Of a DNA stretch of 64,000 nt, positions 2,723 to 63,450 are shown piece after piece (position 1 is the stretch's first letter; the number at the start of each line of letters is the position of its first letter). The notes under the pieces are model-generated. The model was not told the DNA's origin, did no database searches, and saw only the letters and a program-made list of their open reading frames with translations. The translations under genes were made by a program, and so were the position numbers. The DNA is from Eledone cirrhosa (lineage: Eukaryota), in contig OZ024746.1 of NCBI GenBank assembly GCA_964016885.1, positions 101,742,001 to 101,806,000 of the forward strand. The letters run 5' to 3'.

Positions 2723-2945
2723 CATCTCTCCAGCTTTCTTAACTTTTGAAAATCATGAAACGTATGAAACCAGTAAAGTCATAAATTGTTGGAAATAAAC
2801 CTTCTTAAAGACTCCATTTGCTTTTTCAACATATTTTTCCTATGTATATTAAACGATGATGATGATATAACAAAGAAAGTGTGGTAAGAAACCAGGAGTA
2901 CTCGATACTTAGGGTAGTAGAGTGGGTAATATGAAAACAGCCAGG

Positions 2946-3041
2946 ACCCCGATGGTTGAGCTCCGGCTGTTTCGACAGCCAGATCCGAACTAAGCCAGCA
3001 GTATTAGAACGGCGGGAATCTAGCTGAATTTATCAAGGGGT
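2946..3041 (-). ncRNA. Type I hammerhead ribozyme, U3-A8 family, degenerate
   Basis: ACCCC-UUGAUAA-long stem II-GAAA-CAGCCGGAGCUCAACC-AUC-GGGGU. Stem III is disrupted. Confidence 0.55.
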
Positions 3042-4105: not shown

Positions 4106-4201
4106 ATCCCTTGATAAATTCAGCTAGATTCCCGCCGTTCTAATACTGCTGGTTTAGTTCGGATCTAGCTATCGAAACAGCCGGAGCTCAGCCATCGGGG
4201 T
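4106..4201 (+). ncRNA. Type I hammerhead ribozyme, U3-A8 family, degenerate
   Basis: AUCCC-UUGAUAA-stem II (AGCUAGAU/AUCUAGCU)-GAAA-CAGCCGGAGCUCAGCC-AUC-GGGGU. Stem III mismatches fall at CpG positions relative to the 39861 copy. Confidence 0.55.
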
Positions 4202-9010: not shown

Positions 9011-9320
9011 AGGGAGGTTGGTTACTTTGTGTTCAGGCCTGGTTTCTACATATTGCAATAGTGTTTCACAATTTTCCACAAAACCTCAAATTATAAGTTT
9101 CTGCTAAATAAAATTATATTTCTTTCCAAATTCACTATTTTCCGAAAACAAAATATATGATTTATTGGCAATATCTTCTTTCTCAAGAGCAATCAAAGCA
9201 ACAGATATCCTGTAATCTTTTTGTTCCATAAGCCAGAATGTCAGCAATGTAAACCCATTAAATGTTAACATGGAAAAAAAAATGGAAACATTTATTTTTA
9301 TGAATAAAAAATATACTTAC

Positions 9321-11690
9321 ATTAGAAAGTTTTAATCCAAATTGTTTTGGTCTCCTGTTGAGATTATTGAAGTAGAGAGTTAAAGAACTCAGTGTTTCAT
9401 GAACATTGATGTCTCTTGATATGCAAGGAACTAGTTTATTATGGTAGAGCCTTGCATCTATATTAGTATCCAGCATTTGAGAAAAACATTGGAAGCTGTG
9501 TGGCATTTGGTGAGTTGTTATATTTTGAAATAAATTCCTGTATTGTATTGGAAGTAATTTCTTTCTATTTATCTTCTTTTGATATATGACGTTTTCATAG
9601 GATAAAAGTTTAGTAGAATTTTCCAAAACTCTTCTTATTGACTTTGCACCAGTTCCAGCTAATGAGAGGGCATGATGAATGGCTAATGTTAGGCTTTCTG
9701 TATTGGTATTTATTATAAGTTCTGAGCTAAAATCTTTTAGTATCAGTGAAATGTTAGAACATGTAAGAAGTTGTCTGTTATTTACCAAATTTGTGGTGTC
9801 TGGTTCCATTTCTATGGGGAAAGTGTCATAAGATTCAGAATCGGACGGTGGTAAAATAGATTTTCTCAATGGATAAGATATACAAGCCTGCTTACCACAG
9901 GAAAATACCTTTTTTATATAAATATTTACATCATTTATGAATTTAATTAAAACTATTTGCTTGTCAAAATCAATTTTAACTTGTTTCCATATTCGATTTG
10001 TATTTATAGTGCCACCATATTGCAGGAAATTATTACTATTCTGTTGATTAATATAAAAAAGTACCATTGATTTTAATAATGACTGAAAAATATCTGATCT
10101 TATATTCAAGTATTTCTGATTTCCTTCAGGGGATTCATAAGTAATTTGTGGGAGATACATTGGAGAATTAGTTCTATATGCCATTGAAATGTTATCTAAA
10201 CTTACCAAAGCAGTAGAATGATCAGTAAAAATATTTCCACTTGATATTTCAACAAAGCAAGGTTTCACCTTTGTAGAAATTAGGCGTTTAATATGTGAAG
10301 GAGTAATTGAAAGCAAGAAAGTATTTTCACTAGAATTTGGTAGTAATATCATTGTATTATCTAATGGGGTACGAACTAATCTTTTAGACATGTTAAGATT
10401 TGTGGTTGTTGAAACAAAAATGGAGTCTTTAACATGGATATTTGAACTATTTGAAATGAAACTCAAATAAAGAGTTCCAGGTAAATCAGGAAAGTTATTT
10501 CTTTTTAGTTGATCATCAAAAGACTTTCTTTGAAGGAATGAAAACTTATACCTGTTGGCTTTTGACAGAGCTAAAGATTTTCTCCTTATTTTTGAAGAAA
10601 AGTAAGTTTCTGGACAAGGTTTCAGTGAAATTGGAAGATGTATTAAGGAAGTATTCAAAAGAGATTTGTCAGAATTTCTGCACTGGATAGATAGAATAGG
10701 TGATGCCATAGCAGATGGTACCAATTGCATTTCAGGGAAATTATTTGGTTCAATTGTCGATATCATAGCTTCTGTTGTTTTAGAATTTGATTGGTTAATT
10801 CCAGACAAGGGGAGATCTGAAATCAGATTTCCCAGTTTCCTTTTATTTATTATAGGATTATAATTTGAATCATTTATTGAAGCAATTGAATTGGAACTTA
10901 TAACTCTTAAACTTCTCTGAAAATATAAAGAGAATTTACTTCTTTTCAGTGGAGATATATTCATTTGCCTCGTTTGGGGTAAGAATATATTATTGTTAGA
11001 ATCGGGGGAATATGGAATACAGTCAGCAACATTTCTTTGGGCAGTATTTGTTAATACTGTAGAGATATTGCCAAAGTCACCAATAAAAGACTGACTGCTT
11101 GAAGAAAATTCTGGTGTCTGACAAACATCTTTCACTAGGGTATAAACATTATCTTGTTCAAATAAAGTCAAAGGAGTTTGTTTGGAAGTAACTGACCGAA
11201 TATCTAAATTCTTTATCAAAGAATTTTCCTTTCTTAAAAGCATTGAGGCATTAGAAAAATCAATAGAGCATAAAGAATTGTTGTTGATAATATCTGGAAG
11301 TTTTATTTCTGTTAGGTTAAAAGTAACTCCCCAATTCTTTGGAAATGGCAAAAATGGTCTTTCTGAAAATTTTCCTTTGAAATTAGTGAAGGTGTCAATG
11401 TTTGATTCTATAGAAGAAGGTTTGTCTTCACATGACCTGAGAAATTTCAATGCAATGATATTTTCTTGAGAGATTCCTTGATTGTAAGGAAACGTATTTT
11501 CTTCATTTCTTCTGCAATATGAAACATTTGTGTTGGTAGCCATAGTAGCAACAGAAGAAGATATTTCTGGAACATTATCTGATGGATCAATATTATTTTG
11601 GCAATCAGAAACTGTTTGGTAGTATGTGTTAAATTCATTTTCACTTTTTGTTTCCTTAATATCCACAAAAGAAAGATTATTGTTTAATGC
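9321..11690 (-). CDS. Large internal coding exon (2370 nt, 790 codons, phase 0-0) of an unidentified host gene; Ser/Asn/Ile/Leu-rich, no recognised domain
   Basis: 802-codon ORF in AT-rich DNA. Acceptor TTTTTTTAAATTTCAG ends at 11691, donor GTAAGT at 9320-9315, and both are in frame with the ORF. Confidence 0.75.
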
Positions 11691-11946
11691 CTGAAATTTA
11701 AAAAAAGTTTGGTAAATTAATGGGAAACAAACATTAAAATATCACGAATGAACATTTTGAATTCAAAGTTATTGAAAAAAGATGTCTTGCCTAGCTTTGA
11801 ATCTTTATATGAAATAAAATATATTTGAGCTAACAACACAATATGTATATCTGGTGGACATGAGAATGAGTACTCGATATGGAACTAAAGTTTAAATATT
11901 CATTTATTATGGTTAAGTCTCATGATTTTGTTAGTGCACAGCTGAA

Positions 11947-13003: not shown

Positions 13004-13483
13004 ATGTGTGTGTGTGAATGAATTCCATCGGAAAGGTCCAGGAAAAAAGAGTGCTCTATGTAAGTTACAGAGCTTATTAGTTATGTAATAAATAACATAA
13101 GATAATTATTTCATTTACCAGTGGTTTCTTGAAAGCAAGCAAAATTTGCTTTCAGTCATCAGAATGAAAAAATCCTGGTGTATTTATTGACAGTGGATTT
13201 TAAAAACAAAAATATAATCTATATGAAAGTGAAGCTGGAAAAGGAAGAAGGAAAGGAAAAAGAATAAATATAAAAATAGATAAACACACATGCACACACA
13301 CACACACACACACATATACATACACACATACATATATATATATATATACATACACACAGACATACACATACATTCACATATATATATATCCATACATACA
13401 CATACACATAAATACACAAACACATATATATATATATATATACAATATTAAATAAATGGAAACTATATTTATAAAACCATATT

Positions 13484-13958: not shown

Positions 13959-14108
13959 AATATGGTTTTATAAATATAGTTTCCATTTGTTTAATATCGT
14001 ATATCTACTCCAAAAACTTGTCGAGTGCTTTATATCGGTTATAAAATATTTACTTGTTGTAACCCAACAATTTTAAATAAAACTTTTGCATATATATATA
14101 TATATATA

Positions 14109-14819: not shown

Positions 14820-15015
14820 TGGAAAGCATACTAGAAGCATCTACGTGGCTGCTCAACCTACTAGAAATAGCAGCTAACTATCGCCCAAAAAGAAAATACA
14901 TATTGTATAATGCATTTCTAGACACAGTATGTTTAAAGTGAAATATGATTGGAATGCATTTGATCATCAGCCTGTTTGACCAGGGTTGACCTAGGGTTAA
15001 ACAATAACAACAAAT
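14820..15015 (+). mobile_element. Probable SINE 3' fragment with (AAC)n-like tail
   Basis: Ends GACCAGGGTTGACCTAGGGTTAAACAATAACAACAA. Recognised by general resemblance only. Confidence 0.3.
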
Positions 15016-15134
15016 AGTTATCCATAGTTGTAATTTAAGAATGTTTTAATCAGGGATATTTGTGGTATATACTGGCTATCAAACTAATTAGGTATTCAAA
15101 AGAAAACTGAAAGAGCAAAATCTATCTAACGTTT

Positions 15135-18100
15135 CTCTAATACTCTAATAGTCAAATAGTCTAATACTCTAATACTCTAATACTCTAATAGTCTAATACT
15201 CTAATAGTCTAATAGTCTATTACTCTAAGAGTCTAATAGTCTAATACTCTAATACACTAATACTCTAATAGTTTAATAGTCTAATACACTAATACTCTAA
15301 TACTCTAATACTCTAATAGTCTAATACTCTAAAAGTCTAATACTCTATTAGAGTATTAGACTATTAGACTATTAGAGTATTAGTGTATTAGACTATTAGA
15401 GTATTAGTGTATTAGACTATTAAACTATTAGAGTATTAGTGTATTAGAGTATTAGACTATTAGACTCTTAGAGTAATAGACTATTAGACTATTAGAGTAT
15501 TAGACTATTAGACCAATTAGTCTAATGCCTATTAGAGTATTAGAGTATTAGAGTATTAGGGTATTAGACTATTAGACTATTAGAGTATTAGAGTATTAGA
15601 CTATTAGAGTATTAGTGTATTAGACTATTAGAGTATTAGTGTATTAGACTATTAAACTATTAGAGTATTAGTGTATTAGAGTATTAGACTATTAGACTCT
15701 TAGAGTAATAGACTATTAGACTATTAGAGTATTAGACTATTAGACCAATTAGTCTAATGCCTATTAGAGTATTAGAGTATTAGAGTATTAGGGTATTAGA
15801 CTATTAGACTATTAGAGTATTAGAGTATTAGACTATTAGAGTATTAGACCAATTAGTCTAATGTCTATTAGACTATTAGACTATTTGCCTATTAGAGTAT
15901 TAGACTATTAGAGTATTAGGGTATTAGACTATTAGAATATTAGACTATTAGAGTATTAGACTATTAGAGTATTAGACTTTTAGAGTATTAGAGTATTAGA
16001 CTATTAGTCTAATACTCTAATAGTCTAATAGTCTAATAGTCTAATGCTCTAATAGTCTAATAGTCTAATAGTCTAGTACTCTAATAGGCAAATAGTCTAA
16101 TAGTCTAATAGACATTAGACTAATTGGTCTAATAGTCTAATACTCTAATAGTCTAATAGTCTATTACTCTAAGAGTCTAATACTCTAATAGTCTAATACT
16201 CTAATACTCTAATAGTCTAATGCTCTAATAGTCTAATACTCTAATATTCTAATACTCTAATACTCTAATATTCTAATAGTCTAATACCCTAATACTCTAA
16301 TAGTCTAATGCTCTAATAGTCTAATACTCTAATAGTCTAATACTCTAATTCTCTAATAGTCTAATAGTCTAATACCCTAATACTCTAATAGTCTAATGCT
16401 CTAATAGTCTAATACACTAATACTCTAATAGTCTAATGCTCTAATAGTCTAATACTCTAATACTCTAATTGTCTAATAGTCTAATAGTCTAATACACTAA
16501 TAGGCATTAGACTAATTGATCTAATAGTCTAATACTCTAATAGTCTAATACTCTAATATTCTAATAGTCTAATACTCTAATATTCTAATAGTCTAATACT
16601 CTAATACTCTAATATTCTAATAGTCTAATACTCTAATAGTCTAATAGTCTATTACTCTAAGAGTCTAATAGTCTAATACTCTAATACACTAATACTCTAA
16701 TAGTTTAATAGTCTAATACACTAATACTCTAATACTCTAATACTCTAATAGTCTAATACTCTAAAAGTCTAATACTCTATTAGAGTATTAGACTATTAGA
16801 CTATTAGAGTATTAGTGTATTAGACTATTAGAGTATTAGTGTATTAGACTATTAAACTATTAGAGTATTAGTGTATTAGAGTATTAGACTATTAGACTCT
16901 TAGAGTAATAGACTATTAGACTATTAGAGTATTAGACTATTAGACCAATTAGTCTAATGCCTATTAGAGTATTAGAGTATTAGAGTATTAGGGTATTAGA
17001 CTATTAGACTATTAGAGTATTAGAGTATTAGACTATTAGAGTATTAGACCAATTAGTCTAATGTCTATTAGACTATTAGACTATTTGCCTATTAGAGTAT
17101 TAGACTATTAGAGTATTAGGGTATTAGACTATTAGAATATTAGACTATTAGAGTATTAGACTATTAGAGTATTAGACTTTTAGAGTATTAGAGTATTAGA
17201 CTATTAGTCTAATACTCTAATAGTCTAATAGTCTAATAGTCTAATGCTCTAATAGTCTAATAGTCTAATAGTCTAGTACTCTAATAGGCAAATAGTCTAA
17301 TAGTCTAATAGACATTAGACTAATTGGTCTAATAGTCTAATACTCTAATAGTCTAATAGTCTATTACTCTAAGAGTCTAATACTCTAATAGTCTAATACT
17401 CTAATACTCTAATAGTCTAATGCTCTAATAGTCTAATACTCTAATATTCTAATACTCTAATACTCTAATATTCTAATAGTCTAATACCCTAATACTCTAA
17501 TAGTCTAATGCTCTAATAGTCTAATACTCTAATAGTCTAATACTCTAATTCTCTAATAGTCTAATAGTCTAATACCCTAATACTCTAATAGTCTAATGCT
17601 CTAATAGTCTAATACACTAATACTCTAATAGTCTAATGCTCTAATAGTCTAATACTCTAATACTCTAATTGTCTAATAGTCTAATAGTCTAATACACTAA
17701 TAGGCATTAGACTAATTGATCTAATAGTCTAATACTCTAATAGTCTAATACTCTAATATTCTAATAGTCTAATACTCTAATATTCTAATAGTCTAATACT
17801 CTAATACTCTAATATTCTAATAGTCTAATACTCTAATAGTCTAATACTCTAATATTCTAATAGTCTAATACTCTAATAGTCTAATACTCTAATATTCTAA
17901 TAGTCTAATACTCTAATAGTCTAATACTCTAATAGTCTAATACTCTAATATTCTAATAGTCTAATATTCTAATAGTCTAATATTCTAATAGTCTAATACT
18001 CTAATATTCTAATAGTCTAATACTCTAATAGTCTAATACTCTAATAGTCTAATACTCTAATATTCTAATAGTCTAATACTCTAATATTCTAATAGTCTAA

Positions 18101-19630
18101 TACTCTAATATTCTAATAGTCTAATACTCTAATAGTCTAATACTCTAATAGTCTAATACTCTAATATTCTAATAGTCTAATACTCTAATAGTCTAATACT
18201 CTAATAGTCTAATACTCTAATATTCTAATAGTCTAATACTCTAATAGTCTAATACTCTAATAGTCTAATACTCTAATATTCTAATAGTCTAATACTCTAA
18301 TAGTCTAATACTCTAATAGTCTAATACTCTAATATTCTAATAGTCTAATACTCTAATATTCTAATAGTCTAATACTCTAATAGTCTAATACTCTAATAGT
18401 CTAATACTCTAATATTCTAATAGTCTAATACTCTAATATTCTAATAGTCTAATACTCTAATATTCTAATAGTCTAATACTCTAATATTCTAATAGTCTAA
18501 TACTCTAATAGTCTAATACTCTAATAGTCTAATACTCTAATATTCTAATAGTCTAATACTCTAATAGTCTAATATTCTAATAGTCTAATACTCTAATAGT
18601 CTAATACTCTAATAGTCTAATACTCTAATATTCTAATAGTCTAATACTCTAATAGTCTAATACTCTAATAGTCTAATACTCTAATATTCTAATACTCTAA
18701 TAGTCTAATACTCTAATATTCTAATAGTCTAATACTCTAATAGTCTAATACTCTAATAGTCTAATACTCTAATATTCTAATAGTCTAATACTCTAATAGT
18801 CTAATACTCTAATATTCTAATAGTCTAATACTCTAATATTCTAATAGTATAATACTCTAATAGTCTAATACTCTAATATTCTAATAGTCTAATACTCTAA
18901 TAGTCTAATACTCTAATATTCTAATAGTCTAATACTCTAATATTCTAATAGTCTAATACTCTAATAGTCTAATACTCTAATAGTCTAATACTCTAATATT
19001 CTAATAGTCTAATACTCTAATATTCTAATAGTCTAATACTCTAATAGTCTCATACTCTAATAGTCTAATACTCTAATATTCTAATAGTCTAATACTCTAA
19101 TATTCTAATAGTCTAATACTCTAATAGTCTAATACTCTAATAGTCTAATACTCTAATAGTCTAATACTCTAATATTCTAATAGTCTAATACTCTAATAGT
19201 CTAATACTCTAATAGTCTAATACTCTAATAGTCTAATACTCTAATATTCTAATAGTCTAATACTCTAATATTCTAATAGTCTAATACTCTAATAGTCTAA
19301 TACTCTAATAGTCTAATACTCTAATATTCTAATAGTCTAATACTCTAATATTCTAATAGTCTAATACTCTAATAGTCTAATACTCTAATAGTCTAATACT
19401 CTAATATTCTAATAGTCTAATACTCTAATATTCTAATAGTCTAATACTCTAATAGTCTAATACTCTAATAGTCTAATACTCTAATATTCTAATAGTCTAA
19501 TACTCTAATACTCTAATACTCTAATAGTCTAATACTCTAATATTCTAATAGTCTAATACTCTAATACTCTAATACTCTAATAGTCTAATACTCTAATACT
19601 CTAATAGTCTAATACTCTAATACTCTAATA
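15135..19630. repeat. 8-bp satellite TA(CT/GT/TT/CA)CTAA with polarity flips and a 1200-bp higher-order duplication
   Basis: Orientation switches near 15346, 16006, 16778 and 17206. Lines compared across 15601-16645 recur at +1200. Confidence 0.95.
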
Positions 19631-27912: not shown

Positions 27913-28224
27913 GGAGGCAGTGAGGGTAAGAGAGAGAACATCAACACTTATTTATTTAGTTGTATTTATCTGTATTATTTGAGCTATTTGACAAAATAAG
28001 GATCTGAATGTGTGTTGACTAGTGGACCAGTGTTGTCAATAATGATGGCAATAGCGTTGAATGTTTCAATCTTTGTAGTCAAGGAATAGTAAGTCATATA
28101 TACGAGGAACACTAAATATGTAAAACAATTAGACTAACTGGAAAATTTGCATTTTGAAAATTAATGGTTTCAATCTTTTCAGTTGACAATTAAATATTTT
28201 ATTCACTCTGTAAAATATAAGGCA

Positions 28225-30285
28225 TCATCAATGTCAATGTTGTTACATGACATGTCAATATTGTGATGTACTATATCAGTGTCAATGTTGTCATGTCAAT
28301 ATATTCAGGTCCTGTATCACTGTCAATGTTGTCAGGTCCTATATCACTGTCAATGTTGTCAGGTCCTGTATCACTGTCAATATTGTCAGGTCCTGTATCA
28401 CTGTCAATGTTGTCATGTCCTGTATCACTGTCAATGTTGTCATGCCCTATATCACTGTCAATATTGTCAGGTCCTATATCACTGTCAATGTTGTCAGGTC
28501 CCGTATCACTCTCAATGTTGTCAGGTCCTATATCACTGTCAATACTGTCATATCCTATATCACTGTCAATGTTGTCAGGTCCTATATCACTGTCAATGTT
28601 GTCAGGTCCTGTCTTACTGTCAATATTGTCAGGTCCTGTATCACTGTTAATGTTGTCAGGTCCTATATCACTGTCAATGTTATCATGACCTATATCACTG
28701 TCAATATTGTCAGGTCTTGTATCACTGTCAATGTTGTCAGGTTCTATATCACTGTCAATGTTATCATGACCTATATCACTGTCAATATTGTCAGGTCCTA
28801 TATCACTGTCAATATTGTCAGGTCCTATATCACCGTCAATAATGTCAGGTCCTGTATCACTGTCAATGTTGTCAGGTCCTATATCAGTGTCAAAATTGTC
28901 ATGTCCTATATCACTATCAATGTTGCCAGGTCCTATATCACTGTCACTGTTGTCAGGTCCTGTATCACTGTCAATATTGCCATGTCTTGTATCACTGTCA
29001 ATGTTGTCAGGTCCTATATCACTGTCAATGTTTTCAGGTCCTATATGACTGTCAATGTTGTCAGGTCCTGTAACACTGTCAATGTTGTCAGGTCCTATAT
29101 CACTGTCAATGTTATCATGACCTATATCACTGTCAATGTTGTCAGGTCCTATATCACTGTCAATATTGTCAGCTCCTGTATCACTGTCAATATTGTCAGG
29201 TCCTGTATTAATGTCAATGTTGTCGTGTCCTATATCACTGTCAATGTTGTCATGTCCTATATCACTGTCAATATTGTCAGGTCCTGTATCACTGTCAATG
29301 TTGTCAGGTCCTGTATCACTGACAATGTTGTCAGGTCCTATATCATTGTCAATATTGTCAGGTCCCATATCACTGTCAATGTTGTCAGGTCCTATATCAC
29401 TGTCAATGTTGTCAGGTCCTATATCACTGTCAACGTTGTCATCTCCTATATCGCTGTCAATATTGTCAGGTCCTGTATCACTGTGAATATTGTCAGATCT
29501 TGTATCACTGTCAATGTTGTCATGTCCTATATCACTGTCAATGTTGTCAGGTCCTATATCACTGGCAATATTGTCAGGTCCTATATCACTGTCAATATTG
29601 TCAGGTCCTGTATCACTGTCAATATTGCCAGGTCCTATATCACTGTCAATATTGTTATGTCCTATTTCTCTGTCAATGTTGTCAGGTTCTATATCACTGT
29701 CCATATTGTCAGGTCCTATAGCACTGTCAATGTTGTCCGGTTCTATATCACTTTCAATGTCGTCACATCCTACATCACTGTCAATATTGTCAGGACCTGT
29801 ATCACTGTCAATATTGTCAGGTCCTGTATCACTGTCAATGTTGTCAGGTCTTATATCACTGTCAATGTTGTCAGGTCTTATATCACTGTCAATATTGTCA
29901 TCTCCTGTATCACTGTCAATATTGTCAGGTCCTGTATCACTGTCAATGTTGTCTGTTCCTATATCACTGTCAATATTGTCATCTCCTATATCACTGTCAA
30001 TATTGTCAGGTCCTGTATCACTGTCAATGTTGTCAGGTCCTATATCACTGTCAATGTTGTCAGGTCCTATATCAGTGTCAATGTTGTCAGGTCCTGTATC
30101 ACTGTCAATATTGTCAGGTCCTATATCATTGTCAATGTTGTCGTGTCCTATATCACCGTCAATAATGTCAGGTCCTGTATCACTGTCAATATTGTCAGGT
30201 CCTGTATCACTGTCAATGTTGTCAGGTCCTGTATCACTGTCAATGTTGTCAGGTCCTATATCACTGTCAATGTTGTCAGGTCCTA
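28225..30285. repeat. 27-bp minisatellite, about 75 copies, open reading frames on both strands
   Basis: Unit ATATCACTGTCAATGTTGTCAGGTCCT reads (RSYITVNVV)n on + and (GPDNIDSD[I/T])n on -. Confidence 0.95.
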
Positions 30286-30434
30286 GATGAAACAGTATTC
30301 TCTGGCTGGATGGCATTAATGATATCAGTAGCTTTTTTTCTAATGTGATATTTATTCCACTAAACCTCACCATCCAAGTAATGAACTGTATGACGTAGAC
30401 CAATGTTATTGGCTGTTGAAGCTGTGACAGCATA

Positions 30435-30578
30435 AACACACACAAACACACACACAGAAGGACACAAATGATGAGATTCCAACGAAAGCTATTGTAGAGG
30501 ATACTTGCCCAAGGTATCCCACAGTGGCATTGAACCCATATGGCTGGAAAGCAAACTTCTTAACTACACAGCCATGCA
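30435..30578 (-). mobile_element. tRNA-derived SINE fragment
   Basis: The minus strand has A-box-like TGGCTGTGTAG, B-box GGTTCAATGCC, then ACTGTGGGATACCTTGGGCAAGT. Confidence 0.6.
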
Positions 30579-36924: not shown

Positions 36925-36987
<63 letters not shown>

Positions 36988-36989
<2 letters not shown>

Positions 36990-38346
36990 CGAAGGAAATG
37001 TGGTAAGGAACCAGATGGACCATAACGCACCAAAGTACTCAATATTTAGGGTAGTAGATGGGTCATACTTGTTCCTATATATATATATATATATACATAA
37101 AATGTGGAGAAGGAACACACGAGTTGGAATATATATATGAAAATAGGGAGAAAAAGACGATTATTAGGAAGAAAAATATATTGTCTTCCTTTTCATTTTT
37201 TTCTCTTTTTTTCTGGGTTAGAAAATGTTTAAAACAAAATATTTTACTTTGTGTGAAGTGTTAAGGTATCAGTTAATTTATTTATTAATTAACAATGGCA
37301 TTTATTTATTTATTTATATATTTAATACTTGTCTATTACCGGTTTCAGCATTTTATGTATTATCAAATTTGTATTGGTGTAAAATGTTGGTGATGTTGAA
37401 CATGTTAAGGAAATGGTGAAGAAAGAATAATGTTATTTACAAACAAGGTTTTTGAAGTGAAAAGAAATAAGAAAAAAAAGGTGTGATGTGGAACATGATA
37501 AGTTAATGGGAAAGAAAAAATAATATTATTTACAGGCATAGTTCTTGAGGATAAGCAGTTCAAAAAGTGTTATTATGGCAAGAATGCTTAGTTGATCCAT
37601 GATGGAGGCAAATGGTAGTCTGGGGTTGGATATGTTTTCCCCTTTTAGAGAGTTAATATGCAGGGGGGGGTAATTCAGGGTGGTCATAGGAGAGAGAGAT
37701 ATGAGAGGGGTAATTCATTTATATAAGAAAAAGGATTACGTAGAGTGTATGGGAGGTAACTCTTTAGAGAACATAGGAATTAGGTTTTGGTTCATTGTTC
37801 GTTCCAGTTTTAGTTTAGTCCGAAGTTTAGTCCATTAAGTAGAGGTTGGAATTTGTTAATGAAGTACGTTTCCTTATTGGTACAATGGATGAAAGAAGCG
37901 TTGTCTATGAATTTGTAAATGGGGAAAATTTTAAAGTTAGGTTGTTGGTTAGGTGCACAATTGGCGATATGTTCACTAAAAGCAATCTTTCTGTATTCCT
38001 GTATTTTGATTTGTGATCTATGGAAGGTCATTCGTTGTCAGAAGCTGTTTTTTGTCTGTCTTATGTAGTGCTCTTGACAACCTGAGCAGGTCAAAGCATA
38101 GATTAGGTTTTCAGATGCACATCTAAAGTTGTATTTAACTGCGAAATGTTGTCCTTGTTTAAAGTGGAATGTTGAACCATCTATTAGATTTATGCATATA
38201 AATTAACTGATACCTTAACACTTCACACAAAGTAAAATATTTTGTTTTAAACATTTTCTAACCCAGAAAAAAGAGAAAAAAATAAAATGGAAAAAAAATA
38301 TTTTTCTTCCTAATAATCATCTTTTTCTCCCTATTTTCATATATAT
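36988..38346 (-). mobile_element. Penelope-like remnant: GIY-YIG endonuclease fragment between inverted arms (about 37131-37281 and 38197-38346)
   Basis: The minus strand gives NLIYALTCSGC..YIRQT..HRSQI..ETYFINKFQPLLN. A PLE terminus motif lies at 36988-37058. Flanked by (TA)n. Confidence 0.75.
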
Positions 38347-38489: not shown

Positions 38490-38617
38490 AAAGTTCTATT
38501 TAAAATTGTTGGGATACAACAAGTAAATATTTGTATAACTGATATAAAGCACTCGACAAGTATTTGGAGTAGATATACGATATTAATAAATGGAAACTAT
38601 ATTTATAAAACCATATT

Positions 38618-39738: not shown

Positions 39739-39850
<112 letters not shown>

Positions 39851-39860
39851 AACGAGTAGG

Positions 39861-39956
39861 ACCCCGACGGCTGAGCTCAAGCCGTTTCGACGGCTAATTC
39901 TGGACGAAATGAAAATTTTTATCCTGGTATTTGAATAGCCGAGCTTCTCAAGGGGT
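39861..39956 (-). ncRNA. Type I hammerhead ribozyme, U3-A8 core, long stem II; best-preserved copy
   Basis: ACCCC-UUGAGAA-G..CGGCUA..UAGCCG.C-GAA-ACGGCU-UGAGCUC-AGCCGU-C-GGGGU, with a GUC cleavage triplet. Confidence 0.8.
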
Positions 39957-40009
39957 AATTCCATATATGGTCAAAGTGATTGTCACAAGGATTGGTCAAA
40001 CGTTTGTTG

Positions 40010-42311
40010 GGTAAGGAACCAGAAAAGATACCATCATGGCTAGTTAACGGTATTACATTCCTGCTTCCGAAGAATGATGAGACAAACAATCCCAAAAATT
40101 ACAGACCGATAACTTGCTTGACCACAATGTATAAAATTTTAACATCAGTCCTAACTGAATATACATATGACCACCTGATAACAAATGACCTATTTCCCAT
40201 TGAGCAGAAAGGGTGTAAACGAGGCTCATATGGCTGTAAGGATCAACTTTTGGTTAACAAACTGATACTGGAAGATTGTCATAATAGACACAAAAATTTA
40301 TCAATTGCTTGGATAGATTATAAAAAAGCATTCGATAGTTTGCCACACAGTTGGATTGAAAAATGTTTAGAGATTTTCAAAATATCTCCCGTTGTCAGGA
40401 GGTTTTTGTCGTTCAGTATGAAGATATGGAAAACGACACTCCTTTTGAATAGTGAAACAAAATCACTGGAAGCTGGAGAAGTTAATATTAATTGTGGAAT
40501 TTTTCAGGGTGACTCTTTATCACCGCTTTTATTCTGCATCGCACTTATACCATTAAGTAAAATTCTCAATGAAACAAAACATGGATATAAAGTCTATGAC
40601 AAAACCATTAATCACTTGTTCTACATGGATGACCTGAAATTATTTGCAAAAAGTGATGAACAATTGCAAGGGCTATTATCCACTGTGGAGCAGATCAGTG
40701 ATGACATTAAAATGGAGTTTGGACTAGATAAATGCGCCAAAGCAACGTTCACAAGAGGAAAGCTGCTGAAAAGTTCAGACATTAATCTTGATCGGGGGAA
40801 TGTGATAAGAGAACTTGATCAAGAGGAAACTTACAAATATCTAGGTGTTTGTGAAGGAGATGGAATCAAGCACTCGACAATGAGGGAAAGGATAAGGAAG
40901 GAATGTTACCGCAGAGTAAGAGCAATCTTAAAACGGAATTGAATGCAAGGAATAGGATCGATGCCATAAACACGCTTGTCATACCAGTAGTAACCTACAG
41001 TTACAATGTCATCAACTGGTCAAGCACAGAGATCCGTAGGCTCGATACAAAAATTCAAAAATTCTTAACCATGCACAGAATGCATCACCCTAAGGCAGAT
41101 ATAGATAGAATATATCTCCCTAGGAAAGAAGGAGGACGTGGGTTAATCCAGTTAGACATTGCGTTGAAAACTGCAACAATTGGATTATCTACATATCTAA
41201 GGGAATCACATCATTGGATGATCAAACTCGTTTTGAAACACGAAAACATCAAAAGATCATACTCCATTACAAAAGATGCACAAAGATACAGTAATGGACT
41301 ACAAATTTCAGAAGTCCCATTTACTGCTGAAATGGAAAACACAGAAAAAGCAAAGCAGGTAAAAGTAACTGCAAAGAAAGAACTGCTACAGAAACTGGCT
41401 AAGAAATGGCAAGAAAAGCCTCTGTATGGAAAATACCCAGAACGAGCTAACAATCCTGATGTTGACAAAACTTTAACCCATCAGTGGTTGGCATCCTCTG
41501 GACTGAAATCGGAGACTGAAGGACTGATTATATCAGCACAAGATCAGTGTCTGCCAACAAAAAATTACTAAGCCAACATAATAAAAAATGGATGCATCCC
41601 ATTATGCCGTGTATGTAAAAAACAACCAGAGACCATTGACCATATAATTTCAATGTGCAGTCCTATAGCTCCAACCGAATACCTAAACAGGCATGACAGA
41701 GCTGCACAATACATACATTGGGTAATGTGTAAGCATTTTGACCTGCCCCATCAAAAGAATTGGTGGGAGCATCAACCACCACCCATACTTGAAAAATATC
41801 ACATCTCAATCTTGTGGAACTTTAGCATCCAAACAGACCGAAAAATAGATGCAAATAGACCTGATATAATACTGAAGGACTTTAAAAAGAGTGTATGCCT
41901 GCTAATTGATATGTCCGTTCCAATAGACAAGAATGTATCTATAAAAACATTTGAAAAATTGAGCAAGTATAAGGACCTGGAGATAGAAATTGGAAAAATG
42001 TGGAAATTGAGAACTAAAACAATACCAGTGGTTGTAGGCGCTCTAGAAATGATACCTAAGGGGTCTAATGATTACTTATCGCAAATCCCAGGAAACCCGC
42101 GTATAGGAGAAATACAAAAGATAGTACTAATGGGAACTGCCCATATACTAAGGAAGATCCTGTCAATATAAGTACATCACAAGTCTAAACACTAAGGATG
42201 CATGTGTGAATATGTATGTTCTTTCTTGAACATGGCGGACCTTGTTGTCTCTTGAGGTCACTGGTTGTGACTTGGTGATAACTCGTATAAACATAAAGCA
42301 AGATAAATGCA

Positions 42312-42345
<34 letters not shown>
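40010..42345 (+). mobile_element. Dong/R4-clade non-LTR retrotransposon, 5'-truncated, ending in (AAT)n
   Basis: NYRPITCL, IDYKKAFD, IFQGDSLSP, YMDD, CCHC CRVC..ETIDHIISMC, RHD and NRPDIILKD..IDMSVP..EKLSKY. Confidence 0.92.
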
Positions 42346-42347
<2 letters not shown>

Positions 42348-42937
42348 CTTGATCGGGGGAACGTGATAAGAGAACTTGATCAAGAAAAAACTTACAAATA
42401 TCTAGGTGTTTGTGAAGGAGACGGAATCAAGCACTCGACAATGAGGGAAAGGATAAGGAAGGAATGTTACCGCAGAGTAAGAGCAATCTTAAAACGGAAT
42501 TGAATGCAAGGAATAGGATCGATGCCATAAACACGCTTGCCATACCAGTAGTAACCTACAGTTACAATGTCATCAACTGGTCAAGCACAGAGATCCGTAG
42601 GCTCGATACAAAAATTCGAAAATTCTTAACCATGCACAGAATGCATCACCCTAAGGCAGATATAGATAGAATATATCTCCCTAGGAAAGAAGGAGGACGT
42701 GGGTTAATCCAGTTAGACATTGCGTTGAAAACTGCAACAATTGGATTATCTACATATCTAAGGGAATCACATGATTGGATGATCAAACTCGTTTTGAAAC
42801 ACGAAAGCATCAAAAGATCATATTCTATTACAAAAGATGCACAAAGATACAGTAATGGACTGGTTGTGACTTGGTGATAACTCGTATGAACATAAAGCAA
42901 GATAAATGCAACTGTAATAATAATAATAATAATAATG
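42346..42937 (+). mobile_element. Internally deleted second Dong/R4 copy
   Basis: Matches about 40786-41300, then jumps to the 3' UTR (about 42260 onward) at ACT microhomology. Ends in (AAT)n. Confidence 0.85.
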
Positions 42938-56449: not shown

Positions 56450-57430
56450 AAATGTATGTGTTCATATTAAATATAGGTTCATGGTATTTAGTGTTAATGC
56501 TATTTCATAATTGAAATATGTTCAGAGTGGTTATGTGTCGAAATTGATGCTATTTTTATTCCAACAGGAAAGCAGATGTAATCTTATATGCGGGCAACCT
56601 CTGAAAACTTAGTTTTAGAGTTGAGACAAGTATTTGGAGATTTCAGGTTCTGTAGAATTCTATATTTCCCGGTTATGCATAAAGTACATTTTCTTGTACC
56701 TTTTGCATATTCTTTTGATTGGTCTAAAATAGAACAATTTATTACATATATAATTCCACGTTCTTTCATCTCCCACACTCTGTTTGCAAACGCCGTAGTT
56801 TTCTCTTTTTCAGGATGTCTGAAAGAAGCGAGATGTGCGTAATATCGTTGTTTAAATTTATCTTGAGTCATTCCCACATATTGCTCACTGGTAACTGGTT
56901 GGTATTTAAAGGTGTCACTGTTGCCCCATATGTTGCCTTTACCCTGTAGAGGACATTCTCCTGTATTTATGCATGAACATCCTGGATTTTCTCTGGGTAT
57001 TTTCCTATTGGTAATCTTAGATATCATTGAAAGACTGCATAAATAGCTAATCTTGACTAAATTTCTGTTAAATATTTTATTATACCTATGTTGTTGGGGG
57101 AAATGTTTATCTAAAAGATCAAGGCACTTTTTACCTATATTTGTTTTTACTGCTAATGGTGGTGTAAACCAAATTATTTTTATTTTTCTATTGTTATGAT
57201 TATTGGTATTAGTAGAATTAGGTGTATATTTAATTATTTCGTAAAAACCACTATTTTTAAGTATATATATAGGAAAATGTATGACCCCGACAGCAGAGCT
57301 CAAGCCGTTTCGACGACTATTTCTGGACTAAATTAGAATTTTTAGCCTGGTAAATAAATAGCCGAACTTTTCAAGGGGTAATTCCTTATATGGGAAGATT
57401 GAATTTGTCAAAAGGATTGGTTAACATTTC
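56450..57430 (-). mobile_element. Penelope-like element fragment (GIY-YIG endonuclease) preceded by an HHR-bearing terminal repeat
   Basis: IIWFTPP, KHFP, KIFNRN, CPLQG, YVGMT..FKQRY..H, CTLCIT and LNSK. Confidence 0.85.
57284..57379 (-). ncRNA. Type I hammerhead ribozyme, U3-A8 family
   Basis: ACCCC-UUGAAAA-stem II-GAA-ACGGC-UUGAGCUCU-GCUGU-C-GGGGU. Confidence 0.72.
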
Positions 57431-59699: not shown

Positions 59700-61745
59700 C
59701 GAAGGAGGCGTGGTAAGGAACCAGATGGACCATAACGCACCAGAGTACTCAATACTTAGGGTAGTAGAGTGGGCAATAGGAAAATGTTTAACCCCGACGG
59801 CAGAGCTCAAGCCGTTTCGACGGCTATTTTTGGACTAAATTCGAATTTTTAGCGTGGTAATAAATAGCCGAACTTTTCAAGGGGTAATTTCTTATATGGG
59901 AAGATTGTAGTTGTTAAAAAATTAGGGGACCAAAAACGTCGTAGTATGAATGAACTTTGTAGAATGCACTGAAATATGCGAGAAAAAAGGGGTATATGTG
60001 TAAAAAAGATATATATGTGTGAGAAAAAGTTTTAAATCTTAATTATGGAGTAAGATATTAGCTGTATATTTTGTGAAATGACCTAAGCGATTTATGGATG
60101 CAAAGAGAAAATAAATCTGTGCGTCTATTTATTATAGAGTTAAAATTAGAGATAATGGTAAATTTTTCCGCTAGACATAAATTACAAGTTCTAGATATGG
60201 AAGCGTTGGAATATGGAGAAGCATTGCATATTTTACACCAAGAAATTTTGTAATTAATGTTTTTGTCTTTTAAGGACCAGATGAGTTCTGAGAGTGCAGT
60301 GTTTGTTCTTTTAAGTGGGTATTTAAAGGACGAAGAATAGTTATATAATCTTGCCTTAGAGGAATAGAAGTAGAGCCAATGTAGGTATAAGAATTGGTAC
60401 TAGTTATCACATTACATTCGTATACTAAATTTGTATCGAGACAGTAATTATTAAGAGGACATTTAGTTCTATTAAGGCAATTGTATTTACGATTAATGTT
60501 ATTAACAGAGTTATTTGCAAGTGGCCCAAAATTATTTATAGAAGGAATTGTAGTGGAGAAATTAACTAAAGGAGGTGCTAATGTTTCCTGATTTAGATAC
60601 TATTAGGAGCATTCATCGAAATTACGTTTGTCGTCGTATTTATGTTTAAGTTATCTTGTCTAGGAGCATTCATCGAAATTACGTTTGACGTCGTATTTAT
60701 ATTTAAGTTATCTTGTCTAGAGTTTACATTGACGTCGGGCCTTATAGTGTTATTACTATGACGCTCAGTGTTGGATGGATATGATTTATTATTTAATATT
60801 TTAGTATTATGTTTAGAGATAATGTTAGAAATGTTGGAAGTGGTGGAATAAGAAAATTTAATTGTATGCTTATTAAAGATCTTACTATAAATATGTGAAG
60901 GAGGGAAGCAATTATCTAACGCCCTAAAGAATAGTTTAGGAATATTACTAATAATAGAAAGAGAAAAAGGAGCGTTGTACCAAATAATATTTTTATATCT
61001 AGGTCTCCTCTTTATGTTATTGGAATGCTTATAACTAGCTATATTACTATAAGTTCTGCCATGATTGGTTTCATTAGTGTATTTAATTCTGTCTGGATAA
61101 CCAGCTCTGGAAAGCGCATTATTGTAATAATTGGCTGTAGCGTCAAAGATAAGTTTATTAGAAAATAGATTAGAAATTCTTTTTTCAACATTTCTGAGTA
61201 TAGCATTCTTAACATTAATAGGGTGGTTTGATTTAAAATTTACATAATTTAGGTTCTCATTATCCTTATGGTATGGGTAATATAGTCCGGTGTCAAGATT
61301 AAGGGATATTTCTAGGAAGTTAGCTAATTTAACGTTGTTCTCAAATTCAATTTTTAGGTTAAGGTGCTTAAATAGATCAAGTATATTATTCTTGATAATA
61401 TTAAGGTTTACTATGTTACAGTTTAAGACAGTAAAAAGGGCATCGTCACGATAAATTCCACCGCGAAGTTGAGGAATTTTCCGATTTAAAGAGTTCAAAA
61501 TGAAGATTCCAACCAAGTCTGTCAATTGCGCTGAATCCGACGAACCCATGGTGATGTCAAAATTGTTGGAAGTATCATCTCTTGTCCAATATTCGTTGTT
61601 GAATTCCAGGATAGTTTTTCTTGCGGTGAGAATGATGTTCAATTCATCTGTAGTGATGTCCGAATATTTAAACGCATAAGAGAGAGCTTTGTTGAGGAGT
61701 GAAAGAGAAATGGAAGAATAGTAACTGGCAATGTCAAACTGAATA
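59698..61745 (-). mobile_element. Penelope-like element: RT, GIY-YIG remnant and 3' terminal repeat with HHR
   Basis: QFDIASYYSSI, ITMGS, IYRDD, KSNHP and IIWYNAPF. GIY-YIG at about 60490-60130 (CPLNNYCL..LVYEC..YIG). Confidence 0.88.
59791..59885 (-). ncRNA. Type I hammerhead ribozyme, U3-A8 family
   Basis: ACCCC-UUGAAAA-G..CGGCUAUUU..AAAUAGCCG.C-GAA-ACGGC-UUGAGCUCU-GCCGU-C-GGGGU. Confidence 0.78.
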
Positions 61746-62439
61746 AATTTTTGTTTGTTTTTATTTGTTTTTATTTGTTTTTATTTGTTTTTATTTGTTT
61801 TTATTTGTTTTTATTATTCAAGTCATTGAACTAGTCTCGTTTTTTTCTTTTTTCTTCTCTCTTTCCGTGCTTGTCTTTGCTTAAATAATTACTTTTTCAA
61901 TTACAATCTATTTAAACAAACTAGGACCCTATATCGTCTGCTAAGCTTATAAATCATTTAATTTTATTTTTATTCACCTTATCTTATTTTACTTTATTTT
62001 ATTTTAATATTACACTTTAATAAAACTTTTTCGCACATCTTAATAAATCCTTCAGTATATAAACCCTAAATAAATAGTATACTTAATTTCTATATCTGTA
62101 ATCATAAACATCATCAATCATAAACCTCATCAATTTTTAATTTTTTAATTTATTTATAAATTTACAACCGTTTTTTCAGTTATTTTTCAGTGAAGACAGC
62201 GTTTTTCAGTTTAAATCTCAGTTTCTCTCTCTCTCCTTTCTCTTTCTCTCTCCTCCCTCCTTCTTATACTCTTCCTCTGTTATCCTTTCCTTCTTTTTTC
62301 CTTTCTTCCTCTTCCTTCTTTTTTTCCCCTTCCTTCCCTTTTTTCCAATCTTCTATATCCTTTTAAATTTATTTATCATATGTTGATTAGACACTACCTT
62401 GTTCACAAGTGTTTTTTTTAAGCATCATATCATGTCAAC

Positions 62440-63255: not shown

Positions 63256-63320
63256 TTTATCCCGGGTTCAATCGGAGGTACCCACAGTAAGTAAGGTACT
63301 CAATACATAGCGGAGTATAA

Positions 63321-63450
63321 ATATTTAATATAGAAATAGCTTTTACAGGACTAGAACTGTTTAATTCGGGAGAAATCATCAGTAAGGCCTGATGATTTCT
63401 CCCGAATGAAACAGTTCTAGTCCTGTAGAAGCCATTTCTATATTAAATAT
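63321..63450. repeat. Palindrome of about 62-bp arms centred on a hammerhead core
   Basis: ...TCATCAG-TAAGGC-CTGATGA... The right arm reads CUGAUGA-UUUCUCCCGAAU-GAAAC-AGUUCUA-GUC. Confidence 0.8.

What the first reader, a model, noticed from the sequence alone, without database searches (positions are those of the whole stretch)
39861..39956. Atypical hammerhead family: U3-A8 core, about 55-nt stem II and palindromic GAGCUC loop, in five copies
Seen: copies at 2946(-), 4106(+), 39861(-), 57284(-) and 59791(-) share stem I ACCCC/GGGGU, core UUGANAA rather than CUGANGA, a long stem II with a conserved CGGCUA/UAGCCG base and variable apex, and a stem III loop that always contains GAGCUC. Established: positions 3 and 8 of the HHR core form a tertiary pair that tolerates U-A, and Penelope-like termini carry type I HHRs that are usually minimal with a tiny palindromic stem III. 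Inference: this PLE family uses a larger HHR with a stable 5-6 bp stem III and may dimerise through the self-complementary loop. A standard CUGANGA search would miss it.
Basis: partly seen in the sequence, partly recalled or inferred. Interest (0 to 1): 0.75.

Follow-up and report, generated by a model that had tools for sequence, protein, structure and literature searches.

The report
Long-armed retroelement hammerhead, loosened core pair
This is a hammerhead (predicted self-cutting) RNA motif at the end of a very abundant Penelope-like jumping gene; its odd core swap is already known from other such elements, but here the element kept spreading for a long stretch with that core pair mismatched, so efficient self-cutting is likely not needed for each jump.

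Summary
The motif is real. It is a type I hammerhead fold at the 3' end of a Hydra-clade Penelope-like element, with 6,095 exact whole-motif matches and 55,611 matches to its 3' half in this 3.0-Gb genome. The five window copies are four insertions; only 39861 and 59791 are intact. U3-A8, palindromic loop III and dimer cleavage are published for other Penelope-like elements. The 55-nt domain II and 9-nt NN-GAGCUC-N loop are absent from the 25 catalogued Hydra families and are older than U3-A8. Stem II covaries; stem III and GAGCUC are only invariant, so dimerisation is untested. New here: along the element's trunk the 3-8 pair went C-G, U.G, U-A, C.A, U-A, and the mismatched C.A stage left 1,328 matches. 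Every insertion keeps the cleavage site, ends just before one of two bulged hairpins downstream, and most stop inside domain II. Best reading: a weak or conditional ribozyme on a template that is copied uncut or rejoined. This scan noted the Hydra-clade long-armed hammerhead and the twin hairpins before, on other DNA of this genome. No cleavage or RNA data. Interest 0.45.

The parts
39861..39956 (-). Type I hammerhead fold, young subfamily A, U3-A8, intact
   Evidence: 40 best genome hits 98-100% identical
39945..39951 (-). Core positions 3-9, UUGAGAA (U3 at 39951, A8 at 39946); stem I 5' strand at 39952-39956
39889..39944 (-). Domain II, 56 nt: G10.1-C11.1, bulge, 6-8-bp proximal helix, internal loop with AGUCCAG-type strand, variable distal hairpin
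39868..39888 (-). GAAA, stem III CGGC/GCCG and 9-nt loop UU-GAGCUC-A (hexamer 39873-39878)
39861..39867 (-). U16.1, C17 (predicted cut 3' of 39866) and stem I 3' strand GGGGU
   Evidence: cut site inferred from the hammerhead consensus
39846..39988 (-). Whole insertion: 143-nt 5'-truncated end piece of the element, 'short' 3' end running into (TA)n; 5' junction abuts the antisense of a non-LTR reverse-transcriptase frame (39980-40942 +)
2946..3041 (-). Subfamily B copy, decayed; tail-bearing arm of an inverted insertion
4106..4201 (+). Subfamily B copy, decayed; short arm of the same insertion
57284..57379 (-). Subfamily C copy, two changes in stems II and III, short end
59791..59885 (-). Subfamily C copy, intact, with tail to about 59693
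59744..59770 (-). Bulged stem-loop in the tail (ACUC / upper stem / UU bulge / GAGU, then ACU), just behind the short-end position; a second copy lies behind the tail end in full elements
2897..2923 (-). Same bulged stem-loop in the tail of the 2946 arm
60076..61780 (-). Decayed Hydra-clade RT and endonuclease of another lineage (41% identical to the intact protein), to whose 3' end the 59791 copy is joined

Best explanation
The motif is a type I hammerhead fold at the 3' end of a young, autonomous Hydra-clade Penelope-like retroelement, and it likely works as a weak or conditional self-cutting RNA whose cut is not needed for each round of copying. Shown here: the fold, the host element, the history of the 3-8 pair, and the end points of insertions. 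Inferred steps: (1) the element is transcribed through tandem copies; (2) the reverse transcriptase starts 3-5 nt upstream of one of two bulged hairpins that lie downstream of the cleavage site, priming from nicked (TA)n at a UAU, so the template is uncut or cut and rejoined into a circle; (3) cleavage is held back by a soft 3-8 pair and by a competing hairpin that hides GAAA, and is switched on only when two hammerheads swap strands through the near-palindromic stem III or when the element's protein refolds the RNA; (4) the long domain II stalls the enzyme, which leaves the many short inverted stubs.
For: Host: intact 718-aa RT plus C-terminal endonuclease frame between two hammerheads 3,118 nt apart, with the Hydra-clade marks RWR, DKT, CxCX5C, CxxC, CxH and (TA)n targets. 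Selection on the fold: stem II pair 4 goes A-U, G.U, G-C and pair 9 G-C, U-A between subfamilies; 87.7% of cells paired, 53 double-sided changes, 0 of 500 shuffles as high; N7 takes all four letters while U4, G5, A6, A9, GAAA, stem III and UC are the same in every subfamily majority. Soft 3-8 pair: of 6,095 matches about 4,712 are U-A, 1,328 C.A, 46 U.G, 9 C-G; purine-3 (63) and pyrimidine-8 (40) matches are scattered single mutants. The tree is a ladder E (U.G), C (U-A), C.A grade over four starred trunk branches (about 0.2 changes per column), A (U-A), and C.A as a side clade is rejected (25 of 75 rows, p-AU 5e-44); C.A copies carry frames of 481-550 aa, 91-92% identical to the intact protein. 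Ends: insertions stop 15-17 nt behind GCCGUCGG or 46 nt behind hairpin 1, always past the cleavage site. PMC11167929 found in vitro, for a Poseidon element, two internal start sites, a protein-assisted hammerhead and no need of cleavage for insertion. Computed: hammerhead fold is 9% of the ensemble for 39861 and 1.5% for a C.A copy; strand-swapped stem III duplex gains 13.5-16.5 kcal/mol in 8 of 9 copies, top 0.2-1.1% of 4,096 hexamers. Stalling: 21 of 30 unselected copies (18 of 25 insertions) end 5-27 nt upstream of GAAA.
Against: No cleavage, dimer or RNA was observed. Stem III and GAGCUC never covary: 184 of 196 parsed copies have GAGCUC (the oldest subfamily was partly fetched with that word; unforced it is 68 of 100 listed), and the 53 GAATTC copies are spread over all subfamilies, so the invariance may be a protein site. 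U-A was reached twice from U.G and regained after C.A, which fits selection for a good pair and thus for real catalysis. How much a C.A pair slows this ribozyme is not measured; the strong loss for G8A is recalled, not read. The tree uses 83 of 201 parsed copies and a root chosen from protein divergence; recombination could distort it. Short stubs are common in Penelope-like elements, so part of the truncation peak may be a length effect. Stem III (5-6 bp) is stable enough for a monomer, so a dimer may be unnecessary.
Confidence: 0.6

Rival explanations
1. An efficient monomeric hammerhead, stabilised by a loop 1 - loop 2 contact, cuts tandem transcripts into 3.1-kb units that are circularised and serve as the obligatory template.
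For: Stable stem III and extended stem I; more-than-unit insertion in L101 fits copying round a circle, as proposed in PMC4209133; a possible AGU/ACU pairing between the domain II loop and loop 1 scores better than shuffled partners in all five groups; fungal elements with large helix III cleave as monomers.
Against: The trunk passed through C.A and left 1,328 matches; the candidate tertiary pairing is weak in the young groups (mean -1.2 and 0.0 kcal/mol) and does not covary; a competing hairpin is the computed ground state for 39861.
Confidence: 0.2
2. The ribozyme is catalytically dead in the young subfamilies; the three-way junction and GAGCUC loop are kept only as a binding or stop site for the element's protein.
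For: Mismatched 3-8 pair tolerated on the trunk; GAGCUC invariant without covariation; the loop word UUGAGCUC resembles the UUGAGCAC strand of the tail hairpin; truncations pile up in domain II.
Against: All other catalytic positions and the GUC site stay fixed while N7 is free, the pattern expected of a ribozyme core; U-A was restored on the trunk.
Confidence: 0.17
3. Chance resemblance to a hammerhead in a repeat.
For: No Rfam match; folding z-score -1.19.
Against: Position at the element end where Hydra elements carry hammerheads; canonical CUGAUGA core in the oldest subfamily; stem II covariation.
Confidence: 0.02

Closest known systems
Hydra-clade Penelope-like elements and their hammerheads (Craig et al. 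2021, PMC8557442; read: passages, section 11, Files S1 and S2), incl. Hydra-1_Obim
   Same: C-terminal endonuclease, RWK-type, DKT, CxCX5C, CxxC and CxH motifs, (TA)n targets, inverted and tandem ends with a one-sided tail, type I hammerhead near the 3' end
   Different: All 25 listed Hydra families have C3-G8, stem II of 3-7 bp with a 3-10-nt loop and loop III of 1-3 nt; Hydra-1_Obim has a different, canonical hammerhead. Here domain II is 49-56 nt, loop III 9 nt, and positions 3 and 8 take all four pyrimidine-purine states.
U3-A8 minimal hammerheads of Schistosoma mansoni Cercyon elements (Cervera and de la Pena 2014, PMC4209133; read: main text parts 1-2 of 4, passages of one supplement)
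   Same: Same core swap in a Penelope-like terminus, missed by the standard descriptor; palindromic loop 3; dimer model
   Different: Those have helix II of 7-8 bp and little or no helix III; no C.A stage is described in what I read.
Poseidon element of Anolis (Frangieh et al. 2024, PMC11167929; read: parts 1-2 of 4)
   Same: Two internal start sites downstream of the hammerhead that give the tail; hammerhead intact in insertions
   Different: Other clade; its hammerhead overlaps the start codon and has C3-G8; start sites lie in one AC-rich stem-loop, whereas here each end sits before its own bulged hairpin.
Natural U3-A8 hammerheads (Perreault et al. 2011, PMC3088659; read: passages)
   Same: C3-G8 to U3-A8 covariation in nature, stated to be active in vitro
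   Different: Not tied to this element; no long domain II of this kind in the passages seen.
Retroviral dimer-initiation kissing loop (recalled, from no call)
   Same: 9-nt loop with a 6-nt palindrome flanked by 2 and 1 bases; the oldest subfamily has AA-GAGCUC-A
   Different: Here the loop is part of a ribozyme helix, the young subfamilies have pyrimidine flanks, and no alternative palindrome was found.

Membership tests
Type I hammerhead ribozyme | Three helices round the core, ends in stem I | tested here: met
Type I hammerhead ribozyme | Core U4 G5 A6, A9, G12 A13 A14, A15.1-U16.1, H17 | tested here: met
   39861 and 59791; all subfamily majorities
Type I hammerhead ribozyme | Watson-Crick pair 3-8 | tested here: inconclusive
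   U-A in the five window copies and about 4,712 of 6,095 matches; C.A in 1,328, U.G in 46, C-G in 9
Type I hammerhead ribozyme | Helices supported by compensatory change | tested here: inconclusive
   met for stem II, weak for stem I, none for stem III
Type I hammerhead ribozyme | Loop 1 - loop 2 tertiary contact | tested here: inconclusive
   candidate AGU/ACU pairing, no covariation, weak in young groups
Type I hammerhead ribozyme | Site-specific self-cleavage 3' of H17 | not testable with these tools
   needs an assay; no raw RNA run listed
Hydra clade of Penelope-like elements | Single frame, RT followed by C-terminal GIY-YIG-type endonuclease | tested here: met
   718-aa frame in L101 with AYIGLT near the end; 2,054 relatives at E<=1e-20
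Hydra clade of Penelope-like elements | RWK and DKT motifs | tested here: met
   RWR and DKT in P0001
Hydra clade of Penelope-like elements | CxCX5C linker; CxxC and CxH round the conserved E and N | tested here: met
   CNCPDRSIC, CNLC, CKH
Hydra clade of Penelope-like elements | Insertion into (TA)n, inverted or tandem ends, one-sided tail | tested here: met
Hydra clade of Penelope-like elements | Canonical small hammerhead | tested here: not met
   core canonical only in the oldest subfamily; size outside File S2 in all
Hydra clade of Penelope-like elements | Placement with reference Hydra proteins in a tree | not tested
   reference sequences were seen only in a paper supplement and were not used as input
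Naiad clade | Endonuclease N-terminal to RT | tested here: not met
   endonuclease is C-terminal
Non-LTR retrozyme | Non-coding tandem unit of about 170-400 nt | tested here: not met
   unit is 3,118 nt with an intact frame; definition from PMC7229834 abstract
Dimer-initiation kissing loop (recalled) | Palindrome kept by compensatory change | tested here: not met
   one hexamer in all subfamilies; GAATTC only as 53 scattered copies
Dimer-initiation kissing loop (recalled) | RNA dimer formed through the loop | not testable with these tools
   energies only

The most novel reading that the evidence does not exclude
The hammerhead has been re-purposed: catalysis has become dispensable, helix III now serves as a retrovirus-like dimer-initiation loop (NN-GAGCUC-N) that pairs two element RNAs or two tandem ends for a dimeric reverse transcriptase, and the long domain II is a built-in stop that turns most copying events into short inverted stubs. 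The genome then holds a natural allelic series of a ribozyme on its way from enzyme to scaffold.
Probability: 0.15. Interest if true: 0.75.

Novelty: new variant of a known kind. Interest (0 to 1): 0.45.

Why it matters
What hammerheads do in Penelope-like elements is an open question (PMC8557442 calls it unclear; PMC11167929 found cleavage dispensable in vitro for one element). This family offers a dated natural series of the same ribozyme with C-G, U.G, U-A and C.A at the 3-8 pair, each amplified in vivo, and an intact young element to test them in. If the C.A allele does not cut, that is in vivo evidence that these elements spread without self-cleavage. The variant itself is a modest addition: its single odd features have precedents.

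Tried and rejected
Rfam: no hammerhead match in the window at E<=1 or on L101:3250-3600 at E<=10; it also missed ordinary small Hydra hammerheads in L148 and L159, so the miss says little. RNAalifold on the 47-row alignment gave only a weak 7-pair structure; the first pair count used a structure string out of register and was redone. Expression: no RNA holder listed; contigs of four runs were laid, which show ends at the two (TA)n junctions and a depth step inside domain II but may come from the same source and cannot show RNA ends. Neptune and Naiad were considered from memory and dropped after reading the Hydra definition. A link between the loop variant UUCAGCUC and short ends: 5 short against 1 tail among held copies, not significant. 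A compensated palindrome GAAUUC as a subfamily: 53 scattered copies, rejected. Two different RNAs as templates for the two arms: in 19 of 43 opposite-strand pairs no other held copy is closer than the partner and 41 of 43 share the 3-8 state (some pairs are not true arms), which favours one source. First tree was noisy through truncated copies and is used only for the depth of the oldest subfamily. Pfam did not recognise the window's two Hydra fragments. Lunse et al. 2017 (PMC5785218) and Przybilski and Hammann 2007 (PMC1986816) are not held and were not read; the first is a large catalogue of Penelope-associated variants and may bear on novelty, as may the unsearchable supplement file 1 of PMC4209133 and Repbase.

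Full report
Observation. The 96 nt at 39861-39956(-) parse as stem I ACCCC, core UUGAGAA, a 56-nt domain II, GAAA, CGGC-UUGAGCUCA-GCCG, UC, GGGGU. A relaxed type I scan of the window found this copy, 57284 and 59791; a profile search added 2946 and 4106 and nothing else. 2946 and 4106 are the tail and short arms of one inverted insertion and are decayed. The window lies in a 3.0-Gb animal genome, probably an octopod cephalopod (inferred from size and repeat make-up; earlier notes of the scan say octopus). A whole-motif pattern has 6,095 exact matches there, control 0; the 3' half alone has 55,611. These are lower bounds for decayed copies.

Host element. Locus L101 holds hammerhead, tail, an intact 718-aa frame, a 3' untranslated region and a second hammerhead 3,118 nt on, ending in (TA)n. 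The protein has RT followed by a C-terminal endonuclease and the marks that PMC8557442 gives for the Hydra clade: RWR for RWK, DKT, CxCX5C, CxxC, CxH, with (TA)n targets. Its best relatives in the protein collection are 38-54% identical. In 10 fetched regions with paired hammerheads, the inverted arms were one tail end and one short end each time. The 39861 copy is a 143-nt truncated end piece with a short end.

What is known. PMC4209133 (parts 1-2 of 4 read) reports U3-A8 in about 1,300 Schistosoma Cercyon motifs, palindromic loop 3, low dimer activity, and monomer-active variants with large helix III in fungal and protist elements. PMC3088659 (passages) reports natural U3-A8 as active. File S2 of PMC8557442 lists 25 Hydra families, all C3-G8 with stem II of 3-7 bp and loop III of 1-3 nt, and a different hammerhead for Hydra-1_Obim. 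Of 77 metagenome loci of Hydra-type elements, 25 gave a hit in my scan; 24 are C3-G8 with domain II of 11-30 nt and 4-8 nt between GAAA and UH, and one is a weak match inside the frame; 52 gave none, many lacking the untranslated region. Paper searches showed no description of this family; the 2026 Octopus vulgaris repeat paper PMC13282606 has no 'hammerhead', 'ribozyme' or 'Hydra' in its main text. Lunse et al. 2017 could not be read. Also seen: part 1 of 5 of bioRxiv 10.64898/2026.07.22.740005 and passages of PMC6765202, PMC3884650, PMC6155905 and PMC7229834.

Subfamilies and structure. From 201 parsed whole motifs five groups emerge: D (loop AA-GAGCUC-A, core mostly CUGAUGA, domain II 49-55 nt, long branches), B, E, C and A. 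So the long domain II and the GAGCUC loop are older than U3-A8. Stem II covaries between groups: pair 4 is A-U in D and B, G.U in E, G-C in C and A; pair 9 is G-C in D and B, U-A in E and C. On 47 rows the structure has 87.7% paired cells and 53 double-sided changes, above all 500 shuffles and all slid controls, though D rows are out of register at three columns and relatedness inflates such counts. Stem III and the hexamer do not covary: GAGCUC in 184 of 196 (D partly fetched with that word), 68 of 100 unforced old copies, and GAAUUC only in 53 scattered copies. The distal part of domain II folds differently in each group.

The 3-8 pair. Of the 6,095 matches, 55 have G8 (9 C-G, 46 U.G by eye from the list), 1,328 are C.A, and about 4,712 U-A by subtraction; purine at 3 (63) and pyrimidine at 8 (40) are scattered over subfamilies and read as post-insertion mutation. 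A tree of 83 copies (those of the 201 with about 200 nt of homologous upstream sequence, D left out, at most 22 per group, positions 3 and 8 masked, rooted on B) is a ladder: E (U.G), C (U-A), a C.A grade across four starred trunk branches totalling about 0.2 changes per column, then A (U-A), the youngest, to which 39861 belongs. After dropping 8 sporadic rows, C.A as a side clade is rejected (25 of 75 rows, p-AU 5e-44). Endonuclease identity to the intact protein rises in the same order: E 60%, B 65-67%, C 78-88%, C.A 87-97%, A 92-100%. B also holds both U.G and U-A. The coding trunk therefore kept spreading with a mismatched pair, yet returned to U-A; both facts count, in opposite directions. 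Position 3 sits at the border of a C run and a T run, so slippage may ease the change (inference).

Ends and truncations. Short ends fall 15 or 17 nt behind GCCGUCGG (126 of 167) and tail ends 46 nt behind a hairpin in the tail (74 of 106). Both lie downstream of the predicted cut, so the template was uncut or rejoined. In L101 each end is a UAU 3-5 nt before a bulged stem-loop. That stem-loop occurs 50 times in 38 of 77 metagenome loci on the coding strand (6 on the other strand, 1.9 in shuffles), with an upper stem of 3 bp or more in 38 of 50 (null 2.7); on 33 chosen rows 98.7% of cells pair with 45 double-sided changes; TAT lies within 12 nt upstream in 35 of 40 against 7 of 40 downstream. 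I found it before looking at earlier notes, which already describe it. It fits PMC11167929: two internal start sites give the tail, the hammerhead cuts only with protein, and core mutants still insert. Among the first 30 genome matches to the 3' half, 21 end 5-27 nt upstream of GAAA, one at 56, and 8 run on for 83-1,400 nt; counting arms of one insertion once, 18 of 25.

Energies. For 39861 the lowest-energy fold pairs the 3' strand of stem II with the 5' strand of stem III and hides GAAA; the hammerhead fold is 0.7 kcal/mol higher and 9% of the ensemble; it is 38% for 59791, 51% for the intact element's subfamily, 1.5% for a C.A copy. Two stem III regions gain 13.5-16.5 kcal/mol by swapping strands in 8 of 9 copies (10.5 in a decayed one), against a median of 3.4-5.2 for random hexamers. 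This shows that a dimer is possible, not that it forms. The two arms of an insertion mostly share one source.

Verdict. A real hammerhead variant of a known kind in a known clade. Most likely (0.6) a weak or conditional ribozyme whose cut is not needed for every copying round; rivals are an efficient monomer that makes circles (0.2) and a dead ribozyme kept as a protein site (0.17). The part I did not find in print or in the earlier notes shown to me is the history of the 3-8 pair, which gives a ready natural series for testing whether Penelope-like elements need their ribozyme. Interest 0.45.

Noticed in passing
window 59744-59770(-), 2897-2923(-); L101 3415-3441 and 3493-3517; 38 of 77 metagenome loci: Clade-wide bulged stem-loop (GCUC or ACUC / covarying upper stem / 2-nt bulge / GAGC or GAGU, then ACU), often in two tandem copies, each a few bases behind one of the two insertion ends; likely start signal for reverse transcription. 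No Rfam match. Already in earlier notes of the scan.
   Followed up: yes
L126, L130 (partner arms): Inverted partner arms skip exactly from the AGCCGUC of stem II to GGGGU, deleting GAAA and stem III between the two AGCCGUC repeats; suggests a template jump across a folded hairpin.
   Followed up: no
window 63295-63316(-), 63389-63420(+), 13050-13073(-), 13162(-), 14007-14029(+), 38548-38570(-): Other (TA)n-embedded repeat families with the same bulged hairpin and CUGAUGA-type cores.
   Followed up: partly
window 56605-57279(-) and 60076-61780(-); L103, L224: Copies of this hammerhead family sit against pieces of other, more distant Hydra-clade elements (31-49% identity); nested insertion or template switching not told apart.
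   Followed up: partly
window 36983-37067(-): Tail-only piece of the element with the hammerhead deleted.
   Followed up: no
G000:C440 38327, 64749, 91113, 117974: Four near-identical old U3.G8 hammerheads spaced about 26.4 kb apart on a small contig: a large tandem unit.
   Followed up: no
window 39980-42877(+): Broken non-LTR reverse-transcriptase element (RVT_1, E 2.6e-29; R4/Dong-like by recalled motifs) to whose antisense the 39861 piece is joined.
   Followed up: partly
window 9258-11741(-): 827-aa stop-free frame, low in GC and rich in S and N, unlike the surrounding retroelements; possibly a long host exon.
   Followed up: no
window 28214-30559 and about 15000-19500: A roughly 21-nt tandem array open in several frames, and an 8-nt satellite with inverted blocks.
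   Followed up: no
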